A DNA stretch of 64,000 nt, taken from Hyphomonas sp. Its GTDB lineage: Bacteria; Pseudomonadota; Alphaproteobacteria; Caulobacterales; Hyphomonadaceae. The stretch covers positions 2,645,646 through 2,709,645 of the forward strand of contig NZ_OZ260087.1 of assembly GCF_965284475.1 (NCBI RefSeq), in the 5' to 3' direction. Positions 17,491-41,900 of the stretch are shown here, piece after piece. The notes under the pieces are model-generated. The model worked only from the letters and a program-made list of their open reading frames with translations, was not told the origin of the DNA and searched no databases. The position numbers were made by a program, and so were the translations under genes. Position 1 is the first letter of the stretch. The number at the start of each line of letters is the position of its first letter.

Positions 17491-17566
17491 GGGCGGTTAG
17501 CTCAGTTGGTAGAGCATCTCGTTTACACCGAGAGGGTCAGCGGTTCGAGCCCGTTACCGCCCACCA
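17491..17566 (+). tRNA. tRNA-Val (anticodon TAC), CCA encoded
   Basis: GGGCGGTTAGCTCAGTTGGTAGAGCATCTCGTTTACACCGAGAGGGTCAGCGGTTCGAGCCCGTTACCGCCCACCA. Acceptor stem GGGCGGT/ACCGCCC, anticodon stem TCTCG/CGAGA with loop TTTACAC, and a GGTTCGA T-loop. Confidence 0.97.
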
Positions 17567-17595: not shown

Positions 17596-20500
17596 TCAGA
17601 TCGTGCCTTCTTCCCAATCCATTGCCTGTTCGACGGGTGCGGAGGCGGTATCAGTCGCGTCCAGGCTGTGTTCGAGCTTTGCCGCGACTTCCGTAATCGT
17701 GGTCCCGCTCAACAGGTCTCTCAAGCCGATGTCGACATGCAGCGCTGCCTTGATGGCATTCCGGACCTGAACGGCCATCAGGGAGTCAAAGCCAAGGTCT
17801 GACAGTGGCTTGTATGCGTCGATGGTCGACGCGCTGTACCCGAGCGCGCGTCCGACATGACCCCTGAGAAACGCCTCAATAAGCTCTGCTCGCTCGTCTG
17901 CTGGCGCGGAGAGGATGTCATGGTCAAGTGAGATGGTCGGCTCTTCCTGCGTTCGGGACTCCAGGCCGCTCAGCCCGAAGAGTGCGCGGACACGCGGCGT
18001 GCTCTGAGCTGCAAGCAGCTCTATATTCGCTTTCAGAACTGCCGCGTAGGGCATTTCCTGTCCGACCACCCGCTCCATCGCGTCCAGTCCCTCTTCAAGG
18101 TCTATCTGACCCAGGCCGATCCGCTCCCAGCGTTCCCTGACGGAATCGGACAGGCGCGCTGCCATTCCGACTTCACCCCAGGCACCCCAGCCAATGCTGG
18201 TGATAGGCCGTCCGGCAGCGCGCCCCCCTGCGGCAAGACTGTCGAGCCAGGCGTTCGCGCTGGCATAGTTTGCCTGTCCAGGCCCGCCGAACATGGCCGA
18301 GCTTGATGAGAAGGCCACGAACCAGTCAAGCGGGGAACGCCCGGACGCCTTCATCAGGTTTTGTGCGCCATCGATCTTGGGCCCGGCCACGGCGCGGAAC
18401 CTGTCACGGTCTTGTTCACCGATGGGGGCGTCATCAAGCACACCTGCGGCATGGATGATCCCTCGCAATGGCAAGTGTGTGGATACATGTTGCTTCCAGA
18501 GTTCAGCTACGGATTCCGGATCCCCGATGTCACATGCAATCGCGCGAACGATGCAATCGTGTTGCTGGGCCAGATTTGCGGCGGTTTCCTGGGCTTGGGC
18601 GCTATTGCCAGAGCGGCTGACCAGTGTGATTTCGCCTGCGCCCCGTTCGGCGAGCCGCTGTGCCACAGCCAGTCCCAGACCTGCAAGGCCACCGGTGACG
18701 ATATAGGATCCGTCAGAGCGGACAGTCATACGGTTTGTTGGCTCGGGATCAGGCACAATCACGACCTTGCCCATGTGACGCGCGTTGGCCATGAACCGAA
18801 ACGCATCCTTGGCCTTGGCCAGCGAGAAGGCCTGAACGGGCAGCGGTGCCAGCTCCCCTTCTGATATCGCGTCGAGAATACTCTGGAAGGACGTGCGAAC
18901 CTGCTTCGGATCGACGATGATCTGATCACCGAGGTCGACGATGTGATAGTTGACATGCGGCGCGCGTTCTGCGGCTTCCTGCGGCGTCCATATATTGTTC
19001 TTGCCAATTTCCATGAACGCGCCGCCGGGGCGGATCACACGCATGCCTGCGTATATCATGTCTCCGGACAGGGCGTTGATGACGATGTCGACCCCCTCAC
19101 CTCCGGTTGCCTTCTCGATGGCATCGCCGAAGCTGGCTGACCGCGAGTCAAAGGCATACTTTGCCCCTTCGCCCAGCACAAAAGCGCGCTTTTCGTCAGA
19201 CCCTGCTGTCGCAATGACTTCAGCGCCGGCATTCAAGGCCATGCGCATGGCCGCGAGACCGACACCACCGGCCGCAGCGTGAACGAGAACGCGCTGTCCG
19301 GGCTTGATACCTCCAGCCATCGAATAGCAGAGGGCCGCAGTCAGATAGGTGTTGGGAAGCGTCACGGCCTCCGCAAAAGTTATGCAATCAGGTTTCGCCA
19401 GGACGAACCTCTGGCTCACGGTGACATGGCTTGCGAGGCTGTCGCCAGCAAGCGCGACGACTGCATCGCCGGGCTTCAGTCCTGTAACATTTTCACCGAC
19501 GCGGGTAATAATGCCGGCACATTCACTTCCCAGTGCGCCGGCATCGCCCGGATACATTCCCAGTGCGTTCAGAACGTCGCGAAAGTTGAGGCCGGTTGCG
19601 CGCACGCCAATTTCGACTTCGTCCGGTTCTGGAGCGCTGCGCGGCTCCTCGACGAGATGCAGCCGATCAAGGTCGCCTCTTTCCATAATACGAATGACAC
19701 TGCGTTGGCCGCTGGAAAGTGGTGGCGCTGATGTGACCGGAGCAAGGCGCGCGGCAAAGAGATCGCCATTGCGCAGCGCCAGTTCAGGCGCTCTGTCTGC
19801 CAGGGCGAGGGCATCGAATACATCCTGCGGATCAGGTGCCCGGCCTGGATCAAGATCGAGTTGCAGAAGAGGCATCGTCGGGCATTCGGCATCAATCGTG
19901 CGGCCCAGTCCAGCAAGCGTGCCCATGGCAAGAACCGGCGAGTCGCCCGGCGCAACGGCTTTGGCACCGCTGGTGAGAATGCATAGGCCGCATCCGGGTT
20001 TCTCGGACTCAAGGATTTGCGCGGCAGACAAAAGGTCAGCGAAAAGTTCTTCTTCGCGCCCTTCCTGCGTGTCGGTGTCGGCCGAGAGAGACGCGCAGTA
20101 CACGACCCATGATGGTGTGGAAGTCCTGAGCGTTGCTGACAGGTCGCCGAGCGTCACCAGTTGTGCACCTTCAACATCGGCAAGTGATGTTGCGAACTCG
20201 GTATTGTCTGAAACGATCAACAGGTCCTTCGGAATGCTGGCTTCAGGCCGCGGGACATTTTCCCAAGACAATTCAAGCTCATGGAGTGACATCTTGCTCG
20301 CGCCAAGCATCTTGGAAAGCGATGCGGCAGAGACAGCGCGTGCACGAAGTCCTTCAAATTGGGCGATGGGTTCGCCTGTCTCGGTTTCCATTGCGAGGTC
20401 CGCGACGAGCTCAACCTTGTTCGAGCTTTCCTTGCGGAGTCTTGCCGTCACGACGACCCGCCGCGGAGCCGTTCTCTCCCAGCGTATACGGTCAATTCCA

Positions 20501-23500
20501 ATGGGCAGGTAAAGTTGATCGTCTCCATCGTCCGGAACAATCGCACTTACGGCGTGGAACAGATTGTCGACCAGCGCTGGATGGAAACGGTAGTTGGCCA
20601 TGTCTTCTTCGGCGTCGGGCAGCACGGCAAGGCCGACTGCGATGCCGTCGCCTTTCTGCAGCGCTTCAAGCCCGCGGAAAATGGGGCCGTAATTCAGCCC
20701 CAGGGATTCCAGCCGACTGTAGTGTGCCTGAATATCAAGCGTTTCCGGGCACTCACTCTTCGCCTGTGCAGCACTCGGCATGGAAAAGCCGCCCAGGTCT
20801 GGCTGACGCGTCAGCCTGGTGCGCACGAGCGTGCGCCATGGCATGGCGGCGTCGTCGGGCACTTCGCGAACAGTCAGGGAATAGCTGTTCTTGTCCGCAG
20901 GCTCCAACTCGGTATGAACCGTGCAGGATGAGTTTGCATATAGCTCGAGGGGCGCTTCGATTGAAAGATCGGAGAGGGTAACGCTTCCCTTGCCAAGAAT
21001 TGCCTCACCTGCAGCGAGCGCCATCTCGACATAGCCGGTCGCAGGAAAAATGACCCGCCCGAGGATCTTGTGATCCGCAAGGAAGGAAGGTGATTGGGCA
21101 TCAATTGTGGAGATAAACGCCTTGCGCGGCGGCGGGACTTGCTGGATTTCTCCCAGAATCGGATGGAAATGATTGGTGTCCGGGCGCTTGCTGGCAGGCT
21201 GATCGTCAAACCAATAGCGATCATACTGGAAAGGGTAAGTCGGCGCGGGCACGAGGTGTCCGCTGCGATGCCGGTAGACACCCTTCCAGTCAATTTTGGC
21301 GCCTGCTGCATACGCCTGTGCCAGCGCGTTGAGCGCCGTGGCGTTATCATCCTGGCCTCTGCGGAGGCTGGGAACAGTTTTCCACTTTGCTGCAGGACGG
21401 GCACGTGCCGTAAGCCCCAGCAGGGCGGGCTGTGGGCCGAGCTCGATCAGGATGTCGGCCCCGGCCTCTTCCAGCGCCGCTACGCAGTCGCCGAAACGAA
21501 CAGCATTCCGGGCGTGGGCGCGCCAATAGGCGGCGTCAGGTTGAGTGCCTGTCTGGAAAGCTGATCCAGTGAGGTTTGAGATCAGCGGGATGCGGGCAGG
21601 CCGATAGGTGACTTTCCCTGCGGCTTGTTCGAACGCGTCCAGCATGGGGTCCAGGAGCGGGGAGTGGAATGCATGGCTAACCGTCAGGCGGCGCGTCGTC
21701 ACGCCCTTGCTTTCCAGTTCCTTCAGCACTGCCTCCACGGCAGATTCAGTTCCGGAAATGACGGTTTCTTCCACGCCGTTGACACCAGCGATGGCGATCT
21801 CGGTTTCACGGCCACCGAGCATGGGTGAAACCTGATCCTCAGGTGCGAAAATGGCTGCCATGGCGCCACCAGCCGGAAGCTGTTGCATGAGGCGCCCGCG
21901 CTCTGCCACAAGTTGCAATGCGTCCTCGTGACTCATTACTCCAGCCAGGCAAGCTGCGACGTATTCTCCGATACTGTGACCGACAACCATGGAAGGTGTG
22001 ATGCCCCATGACCGCCACAGCTCTGCCATCGCGTACTGGACTGCGAATAGCGCAGGCTGTGTATAGGCCGTTTCCGATATCGGGCTTTCCGCACCCTCAC
22101 TGGGGTACAAGACATCCTGAAGCGGTAGTTCAAGCGCGTCTTTCAGAATAAGTGCGGACTGGTCGATCGACGCACGAAACACAGGCTCGGACTCATAAAG
22201 TCCGCGTGTCATGCCAGGGTATTGAGCACCCTGGCCGGTGCAAAGGAAAGCAACGCGCGGCGAGCTGCCGCCGCTGGTATGACCGATAGTCATTCCCGGG
22301 AGACTGTCACCCTTTGCCAGCGCCGCCAGCTTTTCGCGAAGGTCATTGCTGTCGGATACGACGAGAGCCGCACGATGCATGAGCTGTGACCGCCCGACGG
22401 CAAGTGTCCGTGCAAGATCGTTGAGCGCGGGTGCGCCATCTCTTGAGACAAAGTCACCATATCGCGCAGCGAGTTGCCGGAGCGCGCCCGGCGTTTCGGC
22501 AGATATCGGGATTATGCTGGTGCGATCACTCCCGGCGGGCGATCGTTTGTTTTGCGGGGCGTCGGACAGGATCGCGTGGACGTTTGTGCCGCTGAACCCG
22601 AATGCGCTGACCCCGGCGCGTCGGGGCGTATCACGTCTAGGCCAAGGGGTCGTTTCGGTCACAACTTCGAGCGGCAGATCATCCCAGTCTATTCCCGGGT
22701 TCGGGATATCAAAATGCAATTGCGGCAGAATGGATTCCGACCGGAAGCAGACTAGGACCTTGAGCAGCCCTGCAATGCCGGACGCCGCTTCTGCGTGGCC
22801 AAGGTTTGTCTTGATTGAGCCGATACGAAGCGGCTGAGAAGGGTCGCGTCCATTACACAGGACAGCCCCGAGAGCGCCAGCCTCGATAGGGTCTCCGATT
22901 GGCGTGCCAGTGCCGTGGGCCTCAATATAGTCGATGTCCAGGGGGCCGAGGTGCGCGCTTGCCAGAGCGGCCTTCAACATGCGCTCCTGCGCGGGACCAC
23001 TCGGGACAGTCATTCCGCTCGAGCGGCCATCCGAATTTGTTGCCGAACCGACGAGCAGTCCAAGTATCGGATTGCCGTCCTTCTCGGCATCGGACAGTCG
23101 CTTCAAGGCGATCATGGCGCAGCCCTCGCCGCGGGCAAAGCCGTTAGCTGACGCGTCAAATGTCTTGCAAGCGCCATCTGGTGAGAGCATTCCCCATCTT
23201 GAAAACATCGCCATAGCATCGGGCATGGCGATGACGGCCACGCCACCGGCCAGGGCCAGGTCGCTTTCGCCATTCCGAAGGCTTTGGCAGGCGAGGTGAA
23301 TGGCATTCAGTGATGACGAGCAGGCAGTATCGATGGCGGCGCTGGGCCCAAGGAAACCGTAAGTGAATGAGATGCGGCCAGGGGCTGCATTCATGGCGCC
23401 TCCGGTGGCCGAATAGACGTCGGATTGTTCCGCGCCATTGGACCACATCAGGCGCCCATATTCGGTCGTCGAGATGCCGACGAAGACGCCGGTTGCGCTT

Positions 23501-23928
23501 CCTTCAAGCTGATCCGGCGCGATGCCAGCTGTTTCCATCGCTTCGTGCGCCGTTTCCAGAAGCATTCGCTGCTGTGGATCCAGCGATTTTGCCTCCCGTG
23601 GAGAGATGCCGAAGAATTGCGGGTCGAACTGATCAATCCGGTCCAGAAATCCGCCCTTCTTGGTTACAATCTTGCCGGCTGCGTCACGGTCCGGCGAATA
23701 ATACGCCTCAGCGTCCCAGCGGTCGGCGGGGACGGTGCGGACCGCGTTCACCTTGCCGGAAAGCAGGGCCTGCAAATCGTCCAGGGAGCGGACCCCACCA
23801 GGATAGCGCAAGCCGCAGCCCACAATGGCAATTGGCTCAGACTTTGCACGCTTGGCGACATCAAGTTTTGACTGGAGGCGCTCAATTGCGACGAGGGCGT
23901 CTTTCAGCATATCCCGCGGTGTGGTCAT
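17596..23928 (-). CDS. Modular type I PKS 'F': KS-AT(malonyl)-DH-ER-KR(B)-ACP, with C-terminal DWEEGTI docking motif
   Basis: KS DTACSSS/HGTGT/NLGH; AT GHSIG and HAFH; DH DHKILGRVIFP; ER LNFRDVL and HAAAGGVG; KR VLDD and GQANYASAN; ACP GFDSL. The ATG at 23928 overlaps the upstream TGA. Confidence 0.92.
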   Translation of the reverse strand: MTTPRDMLKDALVAIERLQSKLDVAKRAKSEPIAIVGCGLRYPGGVRSLDDLQALLSGKVNAVRTVPADRWDAEAYYSPDRDAAGKIVTKKGGFLDRIDQFDPQFFGISPREAKSLDPQQRMLLETAHEAMETAGIAPDQLEGSATGVFVGISTTEYGRLMWSNGAEQSDVYSATGGAMNAAPGRISFTYGFLGPSAAIDTACSSSLNAIHLACQSLRNGESDLALAGGVAVIAMPDAMAMFSRWGMLSPDGACKTFDASANGFARGEGCAMIALKRLSDAEKDGNPILGLLVGSATNSDGRSSGMTVPSGPAQERMLKAALASAHLGPLDIDYIEAHGTGTPIGDPIEAGALGAVLCNGRDPSQPLRIGSIKTNLGHAEAASGIAGLLKVLVCFRSESILPQLHFDIPNPGIDWDDLPLEVVTETTPWPRRDTPRRAGVSAFGFSGTNVHAILSDAPQNKRSPAGSDRTSIIPISAETPGALRQLAARYGDFVSRDGAPALNDLARTLAVGRSQLMHRAALVVSDSNDLREKLAALAKGDSLPGMTIGHTSGGSSPRVAFLCTGQGAQYPGMTRGLYESEPVFRASIDQSALILKDALELPLQDVLYPSEGAESPISETAYTQPALFAVQYAMAELWRSWGITPSMVVGHSIGEYVAACLAGVMSHEDALQLVAERGRLMQQLPAGGAMAAIFAPEDQVSPMLGGRETEIAIAGVNGVEETVISGTESAVEAVLKELESKGVTTRRLTVSHAFHSPLLDPMLDAFEQAAGKVTYRPARIPLISNLTGSAFQTGTQPDAAYWRAHARNAVRFGDCVAALEEAGADILIELGPQPALLGLTARARPAAKWKTVPSLRRGQDDNATALNALAQAYAAGAKIDWKGVYRHRSGHLVPAPTYPFQYDRYWFDDQPASKRPDTNHFHPILGEIQQVPPPRKAFISTIDAQSPSFLADHKILGRVIFPATGYVEMALAAGEAILGKGSVTLSDLSIEAPLELYANSSCTVHTELEPADKNSYSLTVREVPDDAAMPWRTLVRTRLTRQPDLGGFSMPSAAQAKSECPETLDIQAHYSRLESLGLNYGPIFRGLEALQKGDGIAVGLAVLPDAEEDMANYRFHPALVDNLFHAVSAIVPDDGDDQLYLPIGIDRIRWERTAPRRVVVTARLRKESSNKVELVADLAMETETGEPIAQFEGLRARAVSAASLSKMLGASKMSLHELELSWENVPRPEASIPKDLLIVSDNTEFATSLADVEGAQLVTLGDLSATLRTSTPSWVVYCASLSADTDTQEGREEELFADLLSAAQILESEKPGCGLCILTSGAKAVAPGDSPVLAMGTLAGLGRTIDAECPTMPLLQLDLDPGRAPDPQDVFDALALADRAPELALRNGDLFAARLAPVTSAPPLSSGQRSVIRIMERGDLDRLHLVEEPRSAPEPDEVEIGVRATGLNFRDVLNALGMYPGDAGALGSECAGIITRVGENVTGLKPGDAVVALAGDSLASHVTVSQRFVLAKPDCITFAEAVTLPNTYLTAALCYSMAGGIKPGQRVLVHAAAGGVGLAAMRMALNAGAEVIATAGSDEKRAFVLGEGAKYAFDSRSASFGDAIEKATGGEGVDIVINALSGDMIYAGMRVIRPGGAFMEIGKNNIWTPQEAAERAPHVNYHIVDLGDQIIVDPKQVRTSFQSILDAISEGELAPLPVQAFSLAKAKDAFRFMANARHMGKVVIVPDPEPTNRMTVRSDGSYIVTGGLAGLGLAVAQRLAERGAGEITLVSRSGNSAQAQETAANLAQQHDCIVRAIACDIGDPESVAELWKQHVSTHLPLRGIIHAAGVLDDAPIGEQDRDRFRAVAGPKIDGAQNLMKASGRSPLDWFVAFSSSSAMFGGPGQANYASANAWLDSLAAGGRAAGRPITSIGWGAWGEVGMAARLSDSVRERWERIGLGQIDLEEGLDAMERVVGQEMPYAAVLKANIELLAAQSTPRVRALFGLSGLESRTQEEPTISLDHDILSAPADERAELIEAFLRGHVGRALGYSASTIDAYKPLSDLGFDSLMAVQVRNAIKAALHVDIGLRDLLSGTTITEVAAKLEHSLDATDTASAPVEQAMDWEEGTI

Positions 23929-24797
23929 GGATTTATTCTTTTCAGGTGTGCGTTCAGCGTAAAGATGAGTGGGGTGGCACATGCGATGCAAATGATCGCT
24001 AAAAGGACAATTCTGTTCGAATTATATCCTTCATTGTCTATAAGCCAGCCCGCCAGGAATGCCAGTGGAACCGGAGCAAGTAGAAGCGGCGCGGATGGCG
24101 CAATTGGTGCCAGGAAGGCGGCTCGGTCTAGCAGTAGCAGAGCCAGCAATCCCAACACGCCTGTCACCGCGAAATGAAGACTATGTCGCAATTCCAGTTC
24201 CACCCACATGCCCGGCATAAACGGTGCAAGAATGATCACAATACCTGCTGTGACATAGAACAAGTTCGTGCTTGTTTTTTCGCCGCGAAGAGCGCGCGAC
24301 AGAACAAGAAACAGGCTGAACGAGACGGGCATGCCCAGAATTGCGAGCCATACAAACCCGAACGGGATAATGTCTCCCTGAGCATAGATCGCCATTGCCG
24401 CAACACTACCCATAGTAGCAACCAGCCACGTCATGTGGTTTGCACGTTCTCCTAATAATATAGCCGAGAATAGAATCACCAGAATGGGAGTTCCCCAGAA
24501 GGCGGCATGAACGGCGTGCCCGTACCCTGCATTGGAGGCGAATGCCCAGGACACCGGCATCAACAGCAGGAACACCGCGCGAAGTATCTGTGTCACCGGC
24601 TTTTGGGTGCGGATAAGATCGCCACGTGACCTGAAGCCAGCGATCGCCACCCACATACACAGCAGTATCAGATAGTGCAGCCACACGACCTGAAACGGCG
24701 GGTACTGATTCAAAAGCGTGCCGACAATCGCTTCGGTCACGGTCCAAACGAGGACGAATCCCAGCATCAGGGAGATGGTACGATAAGAACCCGTCAT
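23925..24797 (-). CDS. EamA/DMT family transporter embedded in the PKS operon
   Basis: 290 aa with about 10 TM segments in two repeats (PFQVVWLHY; ILFSAILLGER). ATGA overlaps at both ends. Confidence 0.8.
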   Translation of the reverse strand: MTGSYRTISLMLGFVLVWTVTEAIVGTLLNQYPPFQVVWLHYLILLCMWVAIAGFRSRGDLIRTQKPVTQILRAVFLLLMPVSWAFASNAGYGHAVHAAFWGTPILVILFSAILLGERANHMTWLVATMGSVAAMAIYAQGDIIPFGFVWLAILGMPVSFSLFLVLSRALRGEKTSTNLFYVTAGIVIILAPFMPGMWVELELRHSLHFAVTGVLGLLALLLLDRAAFLAPIAPSAPLLLAPVPLAFLAGWLIDNEGYNSNRIVLLAIICIACATPLIFTLNAHLKRINP

Positions 24798-27700
24798 TCG
24801 AGTGAATCCAGTGTGGCCCGAAGGCGCGCCGCCAAGTCTTCCTCGCTTATGGAATCATAGTCGTCGACTGGTTGGGAAAGCTCTGTCTTGCCGGTCGTTT
24901 CCATTTTCGCTGGAGACGTCTGAATTCCAAAGCGTGAATCCAGGAAACCGGCCAGCGCATTTACATTCGGATAATTGAACGTCACCGTCGTGGGCAATTT
25001 CAGTCCGGTTCCCACCTCTAGCCGCCTGCGCAGCTCAACTGACATGAGGCTGTCCATACCCATTTCGAAGAGCCCCCGGTCAGGCGAGATGGCATCACCT
25101 GAGGCCTCACCCATAACGATGGCCGCCTCTGCGGCCACGAATTGGGCCAGAATGTCCCGGCGTGCCGACTCGTGAGCGTTTGCGAGCTTGTCCAGGAGAT
25201 CCTTCGCCGCGGACGAACTGTCATTGTTGGCTTGGGGGGCTTTAAGGCTGTCGGGCGCTGCTTGGTCGGCATGGCCGAGCTTTGAAAGCAGCGGTCGCGG
25301 ACGGCGGGTTTCATGTAGTGCCTTCAGGCGCCCCCAATCGATCGAGGCAACAAGCCGCTGGCCGGACTGCGGCGCGTTGATCAGGCCACCCAGCGCATCC
25401 AGTGCCGCCTCGGCATACATGGGCTGGAGGCCTTGCTCGCTATAAGTTCGCTGGATGTCATCGGATGCCAGTCGCATCGTGTCCCAGGTCCCCCACCCAA
25501 CGGAAAGCACATTCAGGCCGCCCGTGCCTGGATTCTGAGCGCTGGCGTCAAGAAATGCGTTTGCCGCCGCATAATGGGCAAAACCAGGCGCACCGAGCAC
25601 AGCTGTTGTGGATGAAAAAAGCGCCAGGAAGTCGGCCCCCCGTTTGGATAGCGTTGCCTCAAGCGCAAGCGTCCCTGCGATTTTCGGCCGCAGCATGGCG
25701 TCGACTTGTGACAGACTCAGATCCCCCATGGCGACAGCTTCGAGGTGAGCGGCTGCATGAATTGTGCCACGGAGCGGAGGGCCCGACAGGAGCAGATCAT
25801 TGAGGGCATCCTCAAGTGAGGCTTCGTCGGCAATGTCCACTTTTATCGCAACTGCATCAGCGCCAGCCTCGCGTATAGCGGTCATCGCAGGGCCATCGGG
25901 CTCTGGGTTCCGGCCGAGAAGCGCGACGCGGCCGGCGCCATGATCAGCCAGCCATTTCGCAACAATCGTACCGAGTCCTCCGAACCCGCCAGTGACGAGA
26001 TAAGTGCCGTTAGCGTCGAAACGCACAGTTTCTTCACTGATTGCGGGAACCTCACAAAGGCGTGGGACAAAACGTTGTCCGTTTCGCCATGCACATTGAT
26101 CCTCATCGTCACGCGTCACGATTGATTTGACGAGAGCGCTGGCCTGGGCGGTCAGTTGGTCTTCACTATCGAGATCGATCAAACCTCCCCAGCTTGACGG
26201 CGCCTCGAGCGCAGCTGTCCGGCCAAAGCCAAGCGCTGGGGCTTGCCATCTTGAATGGGCTGCAGGTTGAGATCCATCACAACAGTGAACACCTCTTGTG
26301 GCGACCCAGAGTCTGGAGCCGTCATGCTTTTCCGCAAGACGAAGCAGATGCCGCAGGGGTGCCATGAAGGCCGCCTCTTCCATTTCAGTGAAAGCTGACA
26401 TGTCTGGCGCAAAGCCCGGATTCGCAAGCGCGAGCGCGCCAAGATAGACAATGTCACAGGGTTCATCAGAGCTGATCTCTGCTTCCGGGTGCACAGCGAA
26501 GCCTCGCGCCTCAAAGGTATGAGTCACAGCTTCCTGGAACTCTCCAGCGTCCCCCACAATCGCAATATGACGTTTGCTTTCAGGCTTGCGCGCGGCAATC
26601 AGCATTTGCTGCGCGCCGGCCCTTCCAAGTCTGGCTTCACCGCCAACGCGGGCGATTTGATTCAAACCTGTCTGATGGAGCAGTTCGGACCAGGCCGCTG
26701 CGGATATCAGGGGGTAATCAGGGCGGAGTGACTTGTCGCTAAATCTCCACCATCCTGGCGTCATCCCGAATGTCAGGTCTACCCACCGCTCGGGAGCGAC
26801 GCCTTCCAGGAGCAGCAACTGACCGCCCGGGGAAAGCAGCGATTGAGCATGCAAAACGGCTTTGCACAGGTCCTCGGTTGCGTGGAGGACATTTGCGGCG
26901 ACCACAATATCGAATGATTCCAGCTCCTGGCCCTGTGAGGCCGGATCGCTCTCGATGTTCAAAATGTCGGTAGAAAACCCAGCGACGTGGCCGTAAGTCC
27001 TGGACGCATCGTCGAGGAAATGCGGAGACACGTCGGTGAAGACGTACTCTATCTGCCTGCCTTCGAAGGCCGCAAGTATTGATCCGGTACTACCGCCTGT
27101 GCCGCCTCCGATTTCGAGTATGCGAACGCGGTGGTCGTCCGGAACGGTCTGTATCACTTGCCGGAGCAGCTCGGCGATCGCGCCGTTGAACGTGCGGGCG
27201 AAGGGCGCCTCGATGTACAACTGGCGCGCTTCTTCGAGAGAGCCATCCGGGAAGAGAAGGCCCACTGCATTCTTCTCACCTTTCAGTACGTCTGCGAGCG
27301 CGACACCACACCGCCGAAGGATTGAAAGTTCTGCGCACTTGCTACCAAACTGCTCAACGGCGCGCTCATACAGGTCAGCTGCATCGTGCCGGGGCAGGGG
27401 ATAAATTGGCCAGAATTCGGTTCCGTCTGTAGAAAGAATATTCTCTTCTGCAAGAATCTGCAGCAGCCTGCTAAAGAGTTGGGTCTGGTCCGGAGCGACC
27501 GAAAGACGTTTCGCCTCTTCTGTCGCCATAAATCGTCGGCCAACGCTTTCGTCGAATCCGAGATCCCTAAACGCCTTGCTCACATAGGCGAGTGAAATGT
27601 GATCCAGCGCAGGCAACAGGTCATCATAACTGCCTAGACCATGCGCTGTGGCGAGATCAGTGAAAGCTGACTCAAGAGCGCTGTGCACGGATTCCGGCGA

Positions 27701-30700: not shown

Positions 30701-31417
30701 GCAGATAACATTGACCCCGCCCGCCAGCGCCAGAGAACACTCGCGGGTGCGCAGAGACACTATGGCCTGATGCACAGCCACCAGCGAGGATGAGCATGCT
30801 GTATCGACCGAAATCGCCGGTCCACTGAATCCCAATGTGTAGGATATCCGTCCTGCAGCAACGCTCGAAGCATTGCCGGATGCAATGTAAGCATCGATTT
30901 TTTCGGCTCCGCGCGCCAGCACCCTGTGGAAATGGTCACTGTTGCAAATCCCGACAAACACGCCTGTCTGGCTTCCCGCAAGACTGTTTGGCGCTATCCC
31001 TGCATGCTCGAGCGTTTCCCACGCAACCTCCAGCAATAATCGCTGTTGCGGGTCCATCGTTGCAGCTTCGCGCGGCGTAATCCCGAAACTGGCCGGGTCA
31101 AAGTCTGTGATGTTGTCAAGGAATCCGCCCCGTTTGGCGGACATTCTGCCGCTTGTTTCCGGATCAGGGTCAAACCATTCATCTGCATTCCAGCGGTCAG
31201 CCGGGATATCGCGTATGGCTTCCCTGCCTTCGAGCAAAAACTTCCAATACGTATCCGGACTATCAATACCGCCAGGAAATCTGCAGCCTATGCCGACGAT
31301 TGCAATTGGAGCAGTCTGCGCTGTCTTTGTCTGTTCCAGCTCCTTGCTAAGCCGGAGTGCCAGCACGGCCAGTTGCTTCTGGGACAGCTTTTGAATGCGT
31401 TCAAGAAAATCGGTCAT
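24794..31417 (-). CDS. Modular type I PKS 'E': KS-AT(FAAH)-DH(atypical)-cMT-KR(A-like)-ACP
   Basis: KS DTACSSS/HGTGT/NFGH; AT GHSAG and FAAH; DH DHIVHGSTLVAGP; MT LEIGGGTGG, FTDVS and ANVLHAT; KR TGGFGGLG with no LDD and AHYAAAN; ACP GMDSL. Confidence 0.92.
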   Translation of the reverse strand: MTDFLERIQKLSQKQLAVLALRLSKELEQTKTAQTAPIAIVGIGCRFPGGIDSPDTYWKFLLEGREAIRDIPADRWNADEWFDPDPETSGRMSAKRGGFLDNITDFDPASFGITPREAATMDPQQRLLLEVAWETLEHAGIAPNSLAGSQTGVFVGICNSDHFHRVLARGAEKIDAYIASGNASSVAAGRISYTLGFSGPAISVDTACSSSLVAVHQAIVSLRTRECSLALAGGVNVICEPETMVSLSKAGMLAPDGRCKAFDASADGFSRGEGCGLVALKRLEDAERDNDQVYAVIRGSALNQDGRSAGLTVPSRSAQEALIRAALTNAGVTPQEISYVEAHGTGTRLGDPIEIRAISAALTSGRTPDQPLIVGSAKTNFGHLESAAGIAGVIKTALALHHGIIPPHLHFNEGNPGIDWDSAGVEIPTKARGWPTMDGRRLAGVSSFGFSGTNAHIVLESARQPTGTPTRAGLSSYCLPVSARSKVALLAQARRLSSAISESDSDLGSIAYTLATGRAHLPERLAISASTKQGAVEALNDYINGRGSPRLNCGHVAPGQSSDVVFLCTGQGAQYPGMARGLFEHSSVFREVIERCDAALGPQPDGRTLIDVMNSGQGPEAPIHQTEWTQPALYAVECGLAAVWRSWGVEPSAVIGHSAGEFAAAEIAGVFTLEDGLKLVAERGKLLSGLPAGGAMAALFLSEAEVAELILPFKGEVSIAAVNARDSVAISGSLTGIDAVLSQLAKQGMHGHRLHISFAAHSPLVDSALDAMEAVATGITARPPSIPVAWNLTGGAQLPDGAPDAAYWRRHLREPVQFSAGMSSLRNAGHRVFLELGPHPVLAALAARDLDDTSSDCMPAFIGSLRRDHDDWAEMADALGKLFVEGVSVNWNRTVPTPRPRPVSLPTYPFQRSRFWIESSHRPKSPDQARSSAALLAGTQRDANGLVFETLLSSDSHDWLSDHIVHGSTLVAGPVYLSMAVGAATKALGAADWSIENFTIEHAMRLESAPLIVETRLGTESGGRVDFSIHSRPQFGSDTSWTRHAEGTLTFPAVHFATEAEDIEAAATELHPDNLAATHLAMLEGLGIKLSGRFRALDRLHTKNGVAIARLALPEGLSPLAVSFADPGLLDGILQTAGASLPRKKNEESPLFFLTGIEHISLSGPLPSSIWCRATLKSPQGERRQRVDSTIFDGEGNCIGVVTGIQLTRADGYRTNAPSQYEIQWEPAPAKLSAAEFLRSPESVHSALESAFTDLATAHGLGSYDDLLPALDHISLAYVSKAFRDLGFDESVGRRFMATEEAKRLSVAPDQTQLFSRLLQILAEENILSTDGTEFWPIYPLPRHDAADLYERAVEQFGSKCAELSILRRCGVALADVLKGEKNAVGLLFPDGSLEEARQLYIEAPFARTFNGAIAELLRQVIQTVPDDHRVRILEIGGGTGGSTGSILAAFEGRQIEYVFTDVSPHFLDDASRTYGHVAGFSTDILNIESDPASQGQELESFDIVVAANVLHATEDLCKAVLHAQSLLSPGGQLLLLEGVAPERWVDLTFGMTPGWWRFSDKSLRPDYPLISAAAWSELLHQTGLNQIARVGGEARLGRAGAQQMLIAARKPESKRHIAIVGDAGEFQEAVTHTFEARGFAVHPEAEISSDEPCDIVYLGALALANPGFAPDMSAFTEMEEAAFMAPLRHLLRLAEKHDGSRLWVATRGVHCCDGSQPAAHSRWQAPALGFGRTAALEAPSSWGGLIDLDSEDQLTAQASALVKSIVTRDDEDQCAWRNGQRFVPRLCEVPAISEETVRFDANGTYLVTGGFGGLGTIVAKWLADHGAGRVALLGRNPEPDGPAMTAIREAGADAVAIKVDIADEASLEDALNDLLLSGPPLRGTIHAAAHLEAVAMGDLSLSQVDAMLRPKIAGTLALEATLSKRGADFLALFSSTTAVLGAPGFAHYAAANAFLDASAQNPGTGGLNVLSVGWGTWDTMRLASDDIQRTYSEQGLQPMYAEAALDALGGLINAPQSGQRLVASIDWGRLKALHETRRPRPLLSKLGHADQAAPDSLKAPQANNDSSSAAKDLLDKLANAHESARRDILAQFVAAEAAIVMGEASGDAISPDRGLFEMGMDSLMSVELRRRLEVGTGLKLPTTVTFNYPNVNALAGFLDSRFGIQTSPAKMETTGKTELSQPVDDYDSISEEDLAARLRATLDSLE

Positions 31418-34400
31418 GCTTCATCCTTTGCATTCAGTCCCAGCATGAGATCCAGTTCTTCTTCGCTAAGGTCTTCAAGTCCGTCCAGCGCGCTGGCGCC
31501 AGCGCTCTGCGGTGACACTGCCATGGCAACATCAGCTGGCGCGGCGATGAATTCAGCGATCAGGGTTTCTCCCAAAGTGTTGATAGTGGGGCTTTCGAAG
31601 AGCAGCGTGGCAGGTAGCTTTCGTCCAAGTGCCCGGCCCAACCGGTTGCGTAGTTCGATCGCCAGGAGTGAATCAAGTCCCATCTCGCCGAAGGGCATTT
31701 CCGGATCAATTCTTCGGCCGGCTGGCAGTGCAAATGTCGTGCGGAGCATGTCTTCAATGAATAGATCAAGAACCTTGCGCTTTTGGTCATCTGGCGCACC
31801 CTTGATGCGGTCATGCAGATCGACTGGTTCAGGGTTTCCACCCGCTCGCTCATTTTTACCGTGATTGCGACCTGGTACAGGCCCGGCAGTGGTGCCTGAA
31901 TCCTCTCGTCTTATCAAATCAGAGAATACCGGATTGGCTGGTCCTCCCCGCCATTCAGACAGTTTCCGCCAATTTACCGGGGCCACGGCAACCTGGCCTG
32001 TGGCTGTATTCATCAGGTAGGCGCTTGCTGCGCGTCCCTCGGCTGGCGACAGGGCTGAAATGCCTTGCTCGGAAAGCCGCGCCAGGGTGTTGTTTCCTGC
32101 GGCCGCGCCAATATCGCTCCACGGGCCCCAGTCAATCGCGAGCCCCGGCAGTCCGCGGCTGTTTCGCTCGCGCATGATGCTTCCAAGCGCAGCATTGGCC
32201 GCCGAGTGGTTTGATTGGGTCGGTGAGCCCAATACGGCGGAGAGCGATGAATACACACAGAAAATATCGATCGGGTCGCTGCGGCTGAGTTTCTCAAGGA
32301 TATAGGTCCCGTCGACCTTTGGGGCCATGACGGTTCGAACCGTTTCGGCGTTTTGTTGCTGTATGCCCGCATCGGCAAGCGTACCTGCTGAATGAATGAT
32401 CCCGCGAAGAGGGGGACCATCCTTGCGGATGCTTGAGAACAGGCGCTCCATGGCGGCTTCGTCAGTTACGTCCACTCTGTGGCTTTCGATGAGTGCACCA
32501 TTTTTGCGGAGCGCGTCCAATACAGTTTCAGCCTCGGAAGACGGCGTACTGCGTGCCGTCGCGACAATACGGCCGGCGCCTTCCTCAGCTAACAGGCGGA
32601 CGGTGTCGAGGCCAATGCCCGAAAGGCCACCGGTAACAAGGTAGGTGCCAGACTTGCGGATAGTGGGCCGTGGCGGGTCTTGCCAGCCAATCACGATCTT
32701 GCCGACATGCCCTGCTTGAGCCATCAGTCTAAACGCATCGGTAATCCGGTCCGGGCCAAAGTTGTGCTGAGGGAGAGGGGTGAGAATGCCCGCATTGAAT
32801 TCAGCAACGACCCTTTGCAGGATCTTACCAATGTAAGCCGGGTCTTCGTCGGCAACATGGCCCCAGTTCACAGGAAGGTATTCAAACGCGTTCACTTGGC
32901 GAGCGGACGTTTCTTCATCCCGCACGTCACGAACGCCGAGTTCAATAAAACGCCCACCCTTTACCAGGATACGCATGCTGGCATCGACCATGTCGCCGGT
33001 CAGCGCATTCAGTACCAGATCAACGCCCCGTCCGTTGGTTGCCTCCAGCACTTCATCTGCGAACTTTGAGTTTCGAGAATCCATGACGAGCTTCGCGCCC
33101 AGACGGCTGACGAGCTTCCGCTTCTCGGGGCTTCCAGCCGTCGCATAGATTTCTGCTCCGGCGGCACGGGCAATTTGAACGGCTGCCATGCCGACGCCCC
33201 CAGAGGCTGCATGGATCAGAACGCGATCACCAGCCGCTATCTTTCCAAGTTCGCGAAGGCAGTAGTCGGCTGTTACGAAAGGAATGGCGAATGCGGAACC
33301 ATCCAGCATGTTGAAGTCGTCAGGAAGATGCGCTGCAAGGGCGGCTGGCAGCGTGACATGTGACGCGAACGCGCCACTTGTCAGAGCAACGACAGCGTCA
33401 CCTGTTTCAAACCCCTCAACGCCTGTTCCCTTGGCGACCACGCGGCCTGCGCATTCGCCGCCAAGAGGAGGAGCACCCGGATATTCGCCAAGGGCGTTGA
33501 GCACATCGCGGAAATTCAATCCTGTCGATTCGACTGCAACTTCAATTTCTCCCGGGCCGGGCACGCGCCGCCGCAATGGTTGACGTTGAAGCTGGTCCAG
33601 ACTTCCTGGTGCAGCATTTACAAGTCGCCACGGTTCGGTGTGTCCTGCTTCCATGGTTTCGGGACGCCATGGCCGGAGCCTTGCTACATACCGTTTCCCC
33701 CCTCTGATCGCGATCTCGGTCTCATTGTCCTGACACAGGAGCGAGGCGGCGATCACAGCATGGCTCTCAACGTCAGGGTCGAGATCAATGCGGCGGCATG
33801 CAAGTTCCGGCAACTCCAGGGGAAGGCTTTTGGCTAGCCCGCCAATGGCTGCGCTGGCTGGTCTGAGTTTCGATTCAGTGCCGGATACGTCCTCTCCTCC
33901 CTTCGTCAGGAAAGTGAGTCTGCTGGTCGGGCTTGCCTTCAGGGCTGCTTGAGATGCGGACAGGGCGGAGATGAAACGCTCCGACACATCTGTCACGCTG
34001 TCATCATCAACAATAACGATCTCGTCGAAGGGCTGGCTTTGATCCAGGAATGCTTCGAGACTGGATTCGCTGTCCGCGCCTGAACTCCGATGGAACACCG
34101 AAACCGTCTGGCCGGCAATCGTCAGTTCTTCTGCGAACGCGTCAGCCTTGGATTGTGATGAGGAGGCGATCAGCCAACGCTCAGAGCACTTGCTGGCCGA
34201 TGCAACCAGGATGGTTTGCGATCCCCGGCAGCCGGGCACATCTGGATCGCCGTCGATCGCCATGACGTCTCCGAGACCTGCCTCCTTGAGGAGGTTGATC
34301 CATGCCGATTTTGTGAGCAACGGGGTCTTGTACCTGAGGTGAGTGTCCTCGTAGGCCCACCAGCCAGGCGTCAGGCCAACTGTCAGATCAAACCAGCGCT

Positions 34401-38979: not shown

Positions 38980-41900
38980 CGTTTGAGGCGCTCCAGCAGC
39001 AGGGCTTCAACCTCTTCGTCTGTCATATTGGTAACGTCCGTGGGAACGATGTCTTCAGTCCGTTGCCTGACGGCAGAACCAGCTTCTGCAGGTTTGGACG
39101 TGCCATTTATTGCGGACAGGAATTGGGACAGGGCGCCAATGGTCGGATAATCGAATACAAGTGACATCGGCAGCCCGCCGTCAATCCCGAGATCGTGGGT
39201 CAGGGCATTTCTGAGTTGAACCGCCATGAGCGAGTCCAGACCAATGTCGCGTAGTCTCTCATCATCGCCAGGTGGGCGGTCCGTCCGGCGGCGAAGCAAC
39301 ATCACGACACGAAGGCGAACGAGTTCACTGATTGCCTTGGCACGTTCGCCCGGCAGCGCATTGGCAATCGCTTCAATCGCTGCGGCAATTTCCGGAGCAG
39401 CTTCGAGACGGGGCGCTTCGATAAACTGGGGTGTTGCGAAGAGTGTGTCAGGCTGGGCGATTGCCGTATCCGAAGGGGCTCTCGCGACAAGCAGGTGCTG
39501 ACCAACCGATTCCGCCGAGGAACCCGGTCTCGGCCAGCTCTCAACAGCGCTGAAGCCTGCGTCCAGCAGCGCACCTTGCCACTTGGTGGCGTCCATGAGT
39601 GCGAGGTCGTCACGCAGGTCGTCCTCTGCATGGCGCCAGCCCTCAATGAGACCAGTGGTCACGTCGAACCAAGCGAAATGCGTCGTCGACTCGATGAGCA
39701 ACAACACGCCAGACGGGCGTAGGAGACTGCGAAGATAGGCCAGTGTATCCGGCAGGTTGCGTACGGCATGAACGGCGTTTGAGGCGAGGACAATATCGAA
39801 GCTGGCCGGTTGAAACCCCTGCTCGCTGGGCGAAGTCTCAAGGTCAAACCGCGCATAGCTGACGCGGTCATGATCGGCGAACCGTTCTTTTGCACGATCC
39901 AGGAATAGATCGGAAACATCCGTGAACGTGTAATTGCCCTGGGCGCCGTCGAGCACATCAAGGACAGCTGCTGTCGTGCCTCCAGTTCCTGCTCCCGCTT
40001 CCAGAATGGCGAGGTTTGGCTTTGTCGCTGCGAGTGCCTCGAAGGCTGCGGCGGCAAGGTCATTCATGTAACGCATGGTTGAGGATCGCTCGTACAGTCC
40101 AAGTGCAAGCGAAAAGTCGCCGCCGGGAAACAGTGTCTCCAGCGGACTGGCCTCGCCCCGCAGGACAGGACCGAGAAGGTTTGCGCAGTGAAGCACGTAA
40201 TCACAAAGCGGTACGTTATCGCTAAGCATAGTTTTGACGTGGGTCATGGCAGACGGAAGGTCCGGGTTCGCAAGCTTGCGCGGCGCGGTTATCCGATCAT
40301 TCTCGATGTCGAGATCATCGCTATCAGCCAGGGCATGAAGCCAGCGACCTACAAGCGGAACCAGTTCTGCGGTCACGCGCATTTGCCTGGATACGTCGGC
40401 AAAGGTTCGCTGTTCTCCATCTTCTGTAAACAGATTATTATCTCGAAGCAGGGAAATTACGAGTGCGCGGCGGAGATCGCCAAGAGCTTGCCATTTCTCT
40501 GGATAGGCTGCCGCGTCGAATCCAAGGGGGCCGCGCTCAGATTGCCTGTCCAGGCGAGCGGAAAGTCTTTTCCAGTGAGTGTCCGTTTGCCACACGCCTG
40601 ACGCTCCGGGTTGCGGTGCGCTTGGGTGCCAGTGCCGGGTGCGCTCAAAGGGATAGGTCGGTAGCGGAACGCGGCGGTTGTTGCGGTTTCTCGAAAGGGA
40701 AGCCGGATCCACGTTAGCGCCATCAACGTAGAGGCGCGCCAGGCTCGTTGCAATCTCGAGACCAGGCTCGCCATTTCGGCGTAGGGATGCCAGAAACGCC
40801 GCCCTGTTGGATGACCCCGTTCGTTCGTCTGATTCCATTGCCATGGCAGAAAGTACCGGGTGCGGACCAATTTCAACAAAGTGCGTAATGCCGAATTCAC
40901 GCAAGCTCTGAATTCCGTCGGCGAAGCGAACGGGTTGGCGGAGGTGATTGACCCAGTGGTCAGGTGTTTCCATGGCACTGGAGTCCGCAAACTCTCCCGT
41001 GAGATTTGATACGATGGGGATTGAACCCTTCTGGAAGTGGACTTTTTCAGCAGCGGCCTTGAAGCGGTCCAGAACCGGATCGACAAGAGCGCAGTGCGCA
41101 GCAAATGCAATCCTCAGAGGTTCGGCACGGATTCCCATAGTAGTGAACTGCGAGATAAGGGGTTCCAGTTCATCCGAATGGCCGCTCAGGACATGATTGT
41201 TCGGGCCATTATAGGCTGCAATCTCAACCGATTGCGTGCCTTCGGTGAGAGGCAGGATCGTGTCGGCGCTGGAGAACACGCTGGCCATCATCCCGCCACT
41301 GGCTGCCTCGGCCGACAGTCGACCACGCTCGGCGACAAGTGAAAGTGCATCCTGAAGCGGCAGAATGCCGGCGATTGTTGCCGCGACAAACTCTCCAAGG
41401 CTGTGCCCGCACAAGGCGTCAGGTATGACACCAAATGACATCCAGAGTCTCGCCAGTGCATATTCCAAGGCAAACAATGCCGGCTGCGCAACGCTCGGAT
41501 CGATCACGCGTGTGTCGTCCTGGTCGGCATGCAAAACGGCCAGCAATCCCCCGGGGACAGCGTCTCCAAGCAGGTCATTGCATTGATCGATTGCATCCCT
41601 GTAAACCGGCTGCGTGTCGTAGAGCGCGCGCCCCATTCCTGGGTGTTGTGCCCCCTGACCCGTGAAGAGAAAAGCCACTTTCGGTCGGTTGCCGGGAATT
41701 GCACGTCCTGACACAAGGCCGGGATGGCATTGACCACTCGCTGCGCTTTGCAGTGCTGCCGAAAGTTCGGCCTTGTCCCGGACTGCTACGGCGAAGCGAT
41801 ACTGAAAATGGGCCCTGCCTTCCGCTGCCGTAAAGCACAGGTCTGTCAGCGGGTCGTTACGCTCAGCGAGTACCGTGGCCGTCCGAGCGGCGAGTTCCGA

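What the first reader, a model, noticed from the sequence alone, without database searches (positions are those of the whole stretch)
17596..17619. PKS F ends in DWEEGTI, a SLiM that predicts hand-off to the divergently encoded NRPS about 40 kb away
Seen: PKS A-E end in helical acidic docking tails (e.g. LSEEELDLML), but PKS F ends in ...QAMDWEEGTI. Established: short acidic C-terminal motifs ending G-x-I/L bind TubC_N-type beta-hairpin docking domains, as in the tubulysin, epothilone, enacyloxin and rhabdopeptide systems. The only such domains in view are the two in the NRPS at 58012. Inference: the chain passes from the last gene of the minus arm to the first gene of the plus arm, linking the two operons into one line.
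Basis: partly seen in the sequence, partly recalled or inferred. Interest (0 to 1): 0.78.

Follow-up and report, generated by a model that had tools for sequence, protein, structure and literature searches.

The report
Docking tail linking PKS to NRPS
The last six residues of the final polyketide synthase (W-E-E-G-T-I) are a conserved docking tag that most likely plugs this enzyme into the peptide synthetase encoded 40 kb away on the other strand, a known kind of connection found here in an uncharacterised Hyphomonas gene cluster.

Summary
PKS F (17596-23928, minus strand) ends in ...AMDWEEGTI, whereas PKS A-E end in acidic helical-type tails.

The tail is not chance. In 14 orthologues down to about 45% identity the last six residues are W-[E/D]-E-[G/S/T]-x-[I/L], after an unconserved linker.

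The genome has three TubC_N docking domains (betaHDs), not two. The third opens a second NRPS just past the window, and PKS G, which ends in DREEFVI, feeds it.

Three results support hand-off from PKS F to the NRPS at 58012:
- Two metagenomic relatives encode the PKS F orthologue directly upstream of the NRPS orthologue, once with a 4-bp overlap.
- Rhodobacterales-type relatives have exactly two tails and two betaHDs.
- No other carrier protein in this genome has such a tail.

By the published docking rules the tail fits the N-terminal betaHD1 (K-I-R-F-R) better than betaHD2. BetaHD2 resembles betaHD3 and may take PKS G's tail.

Binding and chain transfer are untested, and no complex could be modelled. 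This is a new member of a known docking system. An earlier agent of this scan described the two-port glycine module on other DNA.

The parts
17599..17616 (-).
   Evidence: Sequence read. Conserved as W-[ED]-E-[GST]-x-[IL] in 14 orthologues.
17617..17679 (-). Unconserved, acidic, Ala/Thr-rich linker of about 21 residues between the ACP and the SLiM
   Evidence: No positional conservation from -10 to -30 in 14 orthologues. Modelled as coil in a low-confidence AF2 model.
17680..17871 (-). ACP (PP-binding) domain of PKS F, the carrier that would present the chain
   Evidence: PF00550 match at residues 2041-2104 of the 2131-aa frame. Also found in the genome-wide PF00550 scan.
17596..23928 (-). PKS F gene: KS-AT-DH-ER-KR-ACP-SLiM, 2110 aa. 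Its start ATG overlaps the EamA stop as ATGA.
   Evidence: (P0121 is 2110 aa and 100% identical).
58012..58167 (+). betaHD1, the N-terminal TubC_N docking domain of NRPS1. Its beta2 strand is K-I-R-F-R and beta1 contains a Trp. This is the proposed main port for the PKS F tail.
   Evidence: PF18563, 36.5 bits against a cut-off of 26. PDB hits AerJ and Bamb_5915 (6CGO). The code x-[ILV]-[RQ]-F-R is present in 12 of 12 orthologues.
58189..59502 (+). C1, an extra condensation domain with no A or T domain of its own. Its motif is HHIVCDA.
   Evidence: Pfam Condensation, two stretches. Forms a separate clade with 100/100 support. HHxxxD is kept in distant homologues. Best PDB hits are Txo1 and Txo2.
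59566..59715 (+). betaHD2, an internal TubC_N docking domain. Its beta2 strand is Q-L-R-I-K here and x-L-[RK]-[ILV]-N in 11 of 12 orthologues.
   Evidence: PF18563, 48.8 bits. PDB hits EpoB, Bamb_5915 and TubC. Table.
59758..62862 (+). C2-A-T of NRPS1. The A-domain code is about DILTCGMIWK, which looks glycine-like. This part is orthologous to the whole single-type NRPS1' of Allosediminivita.
   Evidence: Pfam. 45% identity end to end with the 1142-aa betaHD-C-A-T protein. Tree. A-domain residues; assigning them to Gly rests on my memory of Stachelhaus codes.
62975..64000 (+). Start of PKS G (KS-AT-KR-ACP), which continues to window coordinate 67507 and ends in DREEFVI. NRPS2 (betaHD3-C-A-T) starts at 67504.
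   Evidence: The third TubC_N is at G000:C1:2713161-2713307, 56.1 bits.
49780..49824 (-). PKS A C-terminal acidic helical-type tail, LSEDEALAALLGGRK
   Evidence: Conserved in congeners.
43337..43423 (-). PKS B C-terminal tail, [29 protein letters not shown]
38979..39026 (-). PKS C C-terminal tail, [16 protein letters not shown]
31417..31470 (-). PKS D C-terminal tail, LSEEELDLMLGLNAKDEA
24797..24850 (-). PKS E C-terminal tail, ISEEDLAARLRATLDSLE

Best explanation
The C-terminal W-E-E-G-T-I of PKS F is a short linear docking motif on a flexible linker behind the last ACP of the minus-strand PKS operon. It binds a TubC_N-type beta-hairpin docking domain of the NRPS at 58012. This brings the ACP-bound, six-module polyketide to a condensation domain, which joins it to the probable glycine on the NRPS carrier. 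The line then runs through PKS G, whose own tail DREEFVI docks on betaHD3 of NRPS2. The overall order is A-B-C-D-E-F, then NRPS1, PKS G and NRPS2. The port used by PKS F is most likely the N-terminal betaHD1, feeding C1. Shown: the tail, its conservation, the three betaHDs, and the gene orders in relatives. Inferred: binding, the port used, and chain transfer. My confidence in hand-off to NRPS1 is about 0.78. My confidence that betaHD1 is the main port is about 0.55-0.6.
For: The tail is present and conserved over a variable linker. The genome has three betaHDs above the Pfam cut-off, all in this cluster, and the same three occur in each of three congeners. Only PKS F and PKS G among the carrier-ending proteins have such tails. 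PKS G overlaps NRPS2 by 4 bp in every cluster seen, so betaHD3 is taken. Collinear relatives place the PKS F orthologue next to the NRPS1 orthologue, with a 4-bp overlap or 190 bp apart with tail AWEEGTI. Single-type relatives have two tails and two betaHDs. PKS A has no N-terminal docking helix, and the NRPS2 C-terminus is unconserved, so the line has one start and one end. The docking rules come from the Kj12B/C complex (PMC6195595): position -4 pairs with beta2 residue 28, Gly at -3 packs on aromatic residue 27, and the last residue is buried. BetaHD1 is [KR]-[ILV]-[RQ]-F-R in 12 of 12 orthologues, which fits E(-4)-G(-3). BetaHD2 and betaHD3 have an aliphatic residue at 27 and Asn at 28. 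The lineage that lost betaHD1-C1 (tree) has Arg28 in the surviving betaHD in 4 of 6 cases.
Against: There is no binding or transfer data, and the tools could not model a complex. The tail departs from the Kj12B pattern L-R-G-E-I: Thr or Val at -2 is uncharged, and -5 is Glu rather than hydrophobic, with Trp at -6 perhaps taking that role. In this genome betaHD2 has Lys28, so it may also bind the tail. Gly(-3) against Phe27 is not a strict rule. P0128 (WEEGLI) appears to pair with a betaHD reading R-L-R-L-R (the pairing is inferred from equal contig length). In the FR-901375 system the SLiM is dispensable in vivo and the betaHD grips the ACP directly (PMC13324335), so the tail may contribute little. 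In other relatives the NRPS block precedes the PKS block, so gene order alone does not fix the direction.
Confidence: 0.78

Rival explanations
1. The PKS F tail docks mainly on the internal betaHD2, or on both ports, so that C2 is the entry point, as it must be in the single-type relatives. BetaHD1-C1 would then serve another purpose.
For: BetaHD2-C2-A-T is the orthologue of the whole single-type NRPS1', at 45% identity against 28% for betaHD1-C1 (tree). In single-type clusters that betaHD must take the PKS F tail. In this genome betaHD2 has Lys28. One SLiM serving several betaHDs has precedent (PMC9113145).
Against: In 11 of 12 double-type proteins betaHD2 has Asn28 and an aliphatic residue at 27, like betaHD3, the partner of the different PKS G tail. 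Arg28 is invariant in betaHD1 and reappears in the single-type betaHD only after betaHD1 is lost. BetaHD1 and the HHxxxD motif of C1 are conserved down to about 33% identity, so that port must have a SLiM partner, and only two SLiMs exist.
Confidence: 0.25
2. The PKS F tail docks on betaHD3 of NRPS2, beyond the window, bypassing NRPS1.
For: BetaHD3 exists and is the best-scoring TubC_N in the genome, at 56 bits. SLiM/betaHD pairs can be promiscuous.
Against: BetaHD3 is translationally coupled to PKS G, which carries its own conserved tail, in every cluster. It has Asn28 and Val27. In collinear relatives PKS F abuts NRPS1, not NRPS2. NRPS1 would be left with two ports and no donor.
Confidence: 0.04
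3. The tail is conserved for a reason other than betaHD docking, such as recognition by the type II thioesterase, the hydrolases or the EamA/MOP exporters. Alternatively it adds little, and the betaHD recognises the ACP body instead.
For: The SLiM is dispensable in vivo in FR-901375 biosynthesis, where the betaHD grips the ACP (PMC13324335). PKS F has no release domain, and hydrolases are encoded in the cluster.
Against: The tail has the position, length, C-terminal Ile or Leu and acidic character of known SLiMs. It co-occurs with betaHD-bearing NRPSs in every relative examined. A second, different tail precedes the other betaHD protein.
Confidence: 0.1

Closest known systems
DepC-DepD and PcdC-PcdK (romidepsin / FR-901375) ACP-SLiM to betaHD-C-A-PCP junctions
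   Same: A PKS ACP with a C-terminal SLiM hands a polyketide to a betaHD-C-A-PCP module on another protein (PMC13324335; PMC6195595).
   Different: Here the receiving protein has two betaHD-C units in tandem before one A-T. The tail sequence W-E-E-G-x-I is specific to this cluster family. Nothing has been tested experimentally.
Rhabdopeptide synthetase Kj12A/B/C (structure 6EWV)
   Same: The last five residues form a strand against beta2 of the betaHD, with Gly at -3 packing on an aromatic residue 27 and a charge pair at -4/28. That system has three betaHDs and two SLiMs, the same count as here.
   Different: Kj12 is a pure NRPS with each betaHD on a separate protein. Here the polarity of the -4/28 pair is reversed (Glu/Arg), -2 is uncharged, and two betaHDs sit on one polypeptide.
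Bamb_5917 / Bamb_5915 (enacyloxin chain release; 6CGO)
   Same: The betaHD of Bamb_5915 (E-L-S-F-R) is among the closest solved relatives of betaHD1 and has the same Phe27-Arg28. It is a betaHD-C unit without its own A-T, as C1 is.
   Different: Bamb_5915 is a stand-alone protein that condenses with a free small molecule. C1 is fused upstream of a full module, and its C-domain part resembles ordinary elongation C domains (Txo1/Txo2), not 6CGO.
EpoA-EpoB and TubB-TubC
   Same: These are PKS-to-NRPS junctions with a TubC_N fold. EpoB and TubC appear among the PDB hits of betaHD2 and betaHD3.
   Different: The downstream domain in EpoB is a cyclisation domain, and the genes are adjacent. Here the partner genes are 40 kb apart on opposite strands.

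Membership tests
SLiM / beta-hairpin docking domain (TubC_N, PF18563) pair | The receiving protein carries a TubC_N-fold domain upstream of a C, Cy, E or similar domain | tested here: met
   PF18563 scores of 36.5, 48.8 and 56.1 bits against a cut-off of 26. PDB sequence hits to AerJ, Bamb_5915, EpoB, TubC and Kj12B-NDD.
SLiM / beta-hairpin docking domain (TubC_N, PF18563) pair | The donor ends, after a carrier protein and a flexible linker, in a motif shorter than 15 residues at the extreme C-terminus | tested here: met
   The ACP ends 27 residues before the stop. The linker is unconserved and six terminal residues are conserved.
SLiM / beta-hairpin docking domain (TubC_N, PF18563) pair | The last five residues follow the Kj12 rules: hydrophobic last residue, small residue at -3 against aromatic 27, and charges at -4 and -2 complementary to beta2 residues 28 and 24 | tested here: inconclusive
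   Ile(-1), Gly(-3)/Phe27 and Glu(-4)/Arg28 fit betaHD1. Thr(-2)/Lys24 is not a salt bridge, and -5 is Glu rather than hydrophobic.
SLiM / beta-hairpin docking domain (TubC_N, PF18563) pair | The tail and betaHD co-occur across relatives, and the genes are adjacent in at least some of them | tested here: met
   Four Hyphomonas genomes, the A. pacifica type and metagenomic clusters. Adjacent and co-oriented and 41/43.
SLiM / beta-hairpin docking domain (TubC_N, PF18563) pair | Physical binding of the tail to the betaHD, and docking-dependent acyl transfer | not testable with these tools
   No multimer prediction or experiment was available. The single-chain AF2 model of ACP plus tail was of low confidence, with mean pLDDT 51.
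Iterative or multi-port docking of the rhabdopeptide kind (more betaHDs than SLiMs) | More betaHD ports than SLiM tails within one assembly line | tested here: met
   Three betaHDs against two tails. The same holds in congeners.
Iterative or multi-port docking of the rhabdopeptide kind (more betaHDs than SLiMs) | One SLiM productively serves two ports, so that a module is reused | not testable with these tools
   The only evidence is the similarity of the beta2 codes of betaHD2 and betaHD3.
Alpha-helical PKS-PKS docking domains (tails of PKS A-E) | A C-terminal amphipathic acidic helix matched by an N-terminal coiled-coil segment on the next subunit | not tested
   Read from sequence only. The tails have the form [LMI][ST][DE][DEQ]E[LVA]..[LM]L, and PKS B-F have N-terminal stretches of the form ...L[KQ]xALxxIxxLxxxL... 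before the KS. PKS A has none.

The most novel reading that the evidence does not exclude
The cluster family uses two docking-code classes. Class I is betaHD1 (Trp in beta1, Phe27, Arg28), which takes the PKS F tail W-E-E-G-x-I. Class II is betaHD2 and betaHD3 (aliphatic residue 27, Asn28), both of which take the PKS G tail E-E-F-V-I. The glycine module plus PKS G would then be a bimodule entered once from PKS F through C1 and again from PKS G's own ACP through C2, before exit through C3. That would be programmed re-use of a hybrid NRPS-PKS bimodule, encoded by docking ports on one polypeptide. The lineage that lost betaHD1-C1 re-specified the remaining port (Asn28 to Arg) and would make a product shorter by one Gly-C2 unit.
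Probability: 0.3. Interest if true: 0.7.

Novelty: new member of a known kind. Interest (0 to 1): 0.4.

Why it matters
The result gives a testable order for an uncharacterised 55-kb PKS-NRPS line split over two divergent operons in Hyphomonas. Predicting the product and expressing the cluster in another host both need that order.

The comparative set adds a natural experiment in docking specificity. It contains two tail classes, two betaHD classes, a protein with two ports, and a lineage that lost one port and changed residue 28 of the other. This could refine the rules used to re-wire assembly lines.

As a docking pair alone it is ordinary. More than 1400 SLiM/betaHD pairs have been reported (PMC9113145).

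Tried and rejected
- **AF2 model of ACP plus tail.** A single-sequence model of the last 134 residues of PKS F had mean pLDDT 51, too poor to say more than that the tail is coil.
- **A third SLiM on the 309-aa hydrolase.** It ends in MESVEF, IESMEF or MEIEEF in Hyphomonas. I rejected it because the tail is not conserved in L036 or L039.
- **Strict covariation of Gly(-3) with Phe27.** I rejected this rule. P0128 (WEEGLI) and P0257 (R-L-R-L-R) appear to share a contig, as do P0125 (WEETVI) and P0247 (Q-L-R-V-R). These pairings rest on equal contig lengths.
- **C1 as a Bamb_5915-like release enzyme.** This found no support from sequence. The best solved relatives are Txo1 and Txo2, and 6CGO is absent at E <= 1e-10 for the C-domain part.
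- **Using the EamA gene as a cluster marker.** The 3-sequence scan of genome contigs found only Hyphomonas, Allosediminivita pacifica and four unrelated EamA genes.
- **Literature searches.** I found no paper on this cluster or its product, and none on tandem betaHD-C-betaHD-C. The AerJ docking search gave nothing usable.
- **Reverse order, NRPS2 to PKS A.** I rejected this. The NRPS2 tail is unconserved, PKS A lacks an N-terminal docking segment, and three hydrolase genes separate the two where they are neighbours.
Full report
**Observation.** The minus-strand frame ending at 17596 reads ...V-E-Q-A-M-D-W-E-E-G-T-I-stop. D-W-E-E-G-T-I occupies 17619-17599 and the TGA occupies 17598-17596. The protein is KS-AT-DH-ER-KR-ACP. 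Orthologues and the database copy (P0121, 2110 aa) show that it starts at the ATG at 23928, which overlaps the stop of the upstream EamA-family gene as ATGA. The NRPS at 58012 is betaHD-C-betaHD-C-A-T, with TubC_N matches at residues 1-52 and 519-568.

**What lies beyond the window.** The window is G000:C1:2645646-2709645 of a 3.43-Mb single-contig genome. Named close hits place it in Hyphomonas: H. oceanitis at 75% and H. pacifica at 56%.
- The whole genome has exactly three TubC_N domains above the Pfam cut-off.
- The third, and best-scoring, lies at window coordinate about 67516.
- The plus arm continues as PKS G (KS-AT-KR-ACP, about 62975-67507), which ends in ...GDDREEFVI.
- NRPS2 follows (betaHD-C-A-T, 67504-70809), overlapping PKS G by 4 bp.
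- Two alpha/beta hydrolases come next. They resemble the exosortase-A-associated hydrolases 2 and 1 weakly, below the curated cut-offs.
- No in-line thioesterase or reductase domain is present.

It comes with its own tail-bearing partner.

**Is the tail real?** Three congeners carry the same cluster in the same divergent layout, with three betaHDs each.
- Their PKS F tails are EWEEGTI, EWEEGVI and EWEEGVI, behind linkers that have diverged completely.
- Their PKS G tails are all DREEFVI.
- Across 14 PKS F orthologues down to about 45% identity, including Allosediminivita pacifica and metagenomic proteins, the last six positions are W (13 of 14), E (13), E (14), G (10, otherwise S or T), x, and I or L (14). 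Positions -10 to -30 show no conservation.
- In the whole genome only three of 14,152 frames of at least 100 aa end in EE[GSTF]x[IL], and two of them are PKS F and PKS G. I defined that pattern after seeing the tails, so the count is descriptive only.
- None of the other carrier-terminated proteins in the genome has such a tail.

**Does PKS F feed the NRPS at 58012?**
1. *Elimination.* There are three ports and two tails. PKS G overlaps NRPS2 by 4 bp in every cluster seen, so betaHD3 belongs to PKS G.
2. *Gene order elsewhere.*
   - In a 54-kb metagenomic contig the order is PKS(2193 aa)-EamA-PKS(2132 aa)-[4-bp overlap]-betaHD-C-betaHD-C-A-T-PKS(1539 aa)-NRPS.
   - In another contig (L038) the PKS F orthologue, with tail AWEEGTI, lies 190 bp upstream of the two-port NRPS on the same strand.
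   - Other relatives place the NRPS block first, followed by the hydrolases, the type II thioesterase and presumably the PKS block. The two blocks are therefore permuted among genomes, and gene order alone is not proof.
3. *Single-type clusters.* In A. pacifica and its relatives the first NRPS is a plain betaHD-C-A-T of 1142 aa. These clusters have two tails (WEESLI and IEEFVL) and two betaHDs, a one-to-one arrangement.
4. *Ends of the line.* PKS A alone lacks an N-terminal docking segment, and the NRPS2 C-terminus is unconserved. Both fit one line running A to F, then NRPS1, PKS G and NRPS2.
5. *A weak Rosetta-stone hint.* P0218 is a natural fusion of a PKS F-like module to a C-A-T module with no betaHD between them.

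**Which port?** The Kj12B/Kj12C complex gives the rules (PMC6195595). The SLiM's last five residues, L-R-G-E-I, form a strand on beta2. Position -4 pairs with residue 28, -2 pairs with residue 24, Gly at -3 packs on Tyr27, and the last residue is buried. I mapped this numbering through the HMMER alignments to Kj12B-NDD.

| Port | beta2 residues 24-28 | Orthologues |
|---|---|---|
| betaHD1 | [K/R]-[I/L/V]-[R/Q]-F-R, plus a Trp in beta1 | 12 of 12 |
| betaHD2 | [Q/K/R]-L-[R/K]-[I/L/V]-N (Lys28 only in this genome) | 11 of 12 |
| betaHD3 | [K/R/D]-L-x-[V/L]-[N/T] | 6 of 6 |

The PKS F tail, with E(-4)-G(-3), therefore fits betaHD1. The PKS G tail, with E(-4)-F(-3), goes with the aliphatic-27/Asn28 type. 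BetaHD2 is of that second type.

Evolution points the same way. The single-type NRPS aligns end to end with betaHD2-C2-A-T at 45% identity, against 28% for betaHD1-C1. In a maximum-likelihood tree its C domain nests inside the C2 clade as sister to Hyphomonas C2 (support 98/97), while C1 is a separate clade (100/100). The single type is therefore most simply a loss of betaHD1-C1. In that lineage the surviving betaHD has Arg at residue 28 in 4 of 6 cases, as if it had been re-specified for the PKS F tail.

Several caveats apply.
- Thr or Val at -2 is uncharged.
- Position -5 is Glu, not hydrophobic.
- Gly(-3) against Phe27 is not strict.
- Lys28 in this genome's betaHD2 could let it bind the tail as well.
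- In FR-901375 biosynthesis the SLiM is dispensable in vivo, because the betaHD grips the ACP itself (PMC13324335).

**What the second port might do.** C1 keeps HHxxxD in all homologues, and both betaHDs are conserved down to about 33% identity. Both ports should therefore be used, yet only two tails exist. The A domain of NRPS1 reads about D-I-L-T-C-G-M-I-W-K, which I take to be glycine-like from memory of the specificity codes. Glycine has one nucleophile, which argues against double acylation of one residue. The simplest remaining idea is that PKS G's tail can dock on betaHD2 as well as betaHD3, so that the Gly module plus PKS G is entered twice. This is a hypothesis and is untested. An earlier agent of this scan reached a similar reading, a glycine module with two docking ports, on another genome (e1-2126306). 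I found no paper describing the layout.

**Comparison with known systems.** This is a SLiM/betaHD junction of the DepC-DepD and PcdC-PcdK kind, in which an ACP-SLiM feeds a betaHD-C-A-PCP. Its port-to-tail ratio matches the rhabdopeptide system. The features that define the family at sequence level are met. Binding and transfer could not be tested. More than 1400 such pairs have been reported, so the docking pair itself is a new member of a known kind.

**Verdict.** Interest is moderate. The finding fixes the order of an uncharacterised split assembly line and exposes a natural two-class docking code worth testing.

Noticed in passing
G000:C1:2713131-2713307 (window coordinates about 67486-67662, beyond the window): A second SLiM/betaHD junction lies just past the window. 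PKS G ends in DREEFVI, and NRPS2 begins with the best-scoring TubC_N of the genome, overlapping PKS G by 4 bp. The tail is conserved as [RI]-E-E-F-[VE]-[IL] in all relatives seen.
   Followed up: yes
window 58012-62985, with relatives P0244, P0247, P0257 and L039:6580-10008: The cluster family exists in a two-port form (betaHD-C-betaHD-C-A-T) and a one-port form (betaHD-C-A-T, Allosediminivita type). The tree places the one-port C domain inside the C2 clade, so the one-port form looks like a loss of betaHD1-C1. Residue 28 of the surviving betaHD is Arg instead of Asn.
   Followed up: yes
window 59544-59559: GGGAG lies 8 nt upstream of an in-frame ATG at 59557, which opens betaHD2. The Met is at the same place in all four Hyphomonas genomes but not in distant homologues. 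A separately translated betaHD2-C2-A-T isoform is conceivable.
   Followed up: partly
G000:C1 about 2716451-2718156 (window coordinates 70806-72511): Two alpha/beta hydrolases follow NRPS2. They match TIGR03101 and TIGR03100 (exosortase-A-associated hydrolases 2 and 1) weakly, below the cut-offs. They are the only obvious release candidates besides the type II thioesterase at 54324-55139. The 309-aa hydrolase ends in an acidic ...EF tail, in Hyphomonas only.
   Followed up: partly
window 23925-23928: The EamA-family membrane protein gene sits between PKS E and PKS F and is translationally coupled to PKS F through an ATGA overlap. The E-EamA-F arrangement is kept in every relative, including distant metagenomic ones.
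   Followed up: partly
window 17491-17566: tRNA-Val (TAC) lies on the plus strand, 29 bp from the PKS F stop and convergent with it. The cluster ends at a tRNA gene.
   Followed up: partly
P0218 (metagenomic protein, 3224 aa): This is a natural fusion of a PKS F-like KS-AT-DH-ER-KR-ACP module directly to C-A-T, with no betaHD or SLiM at the junction. The fused protein itself ends in a SLiM-like ...DHEEILL.
   Followed up: no
G000:C1 about 115258-115803 and about 209509-215224: The genome holds further carrier-protein loci outside this cluster: a 1312-aa frame with two tandem PP-binding domains, and two large frames (2089 and 1957 aa) with PP-binding domains. None ends in a SLiM-like tail.
   Followed up: partly
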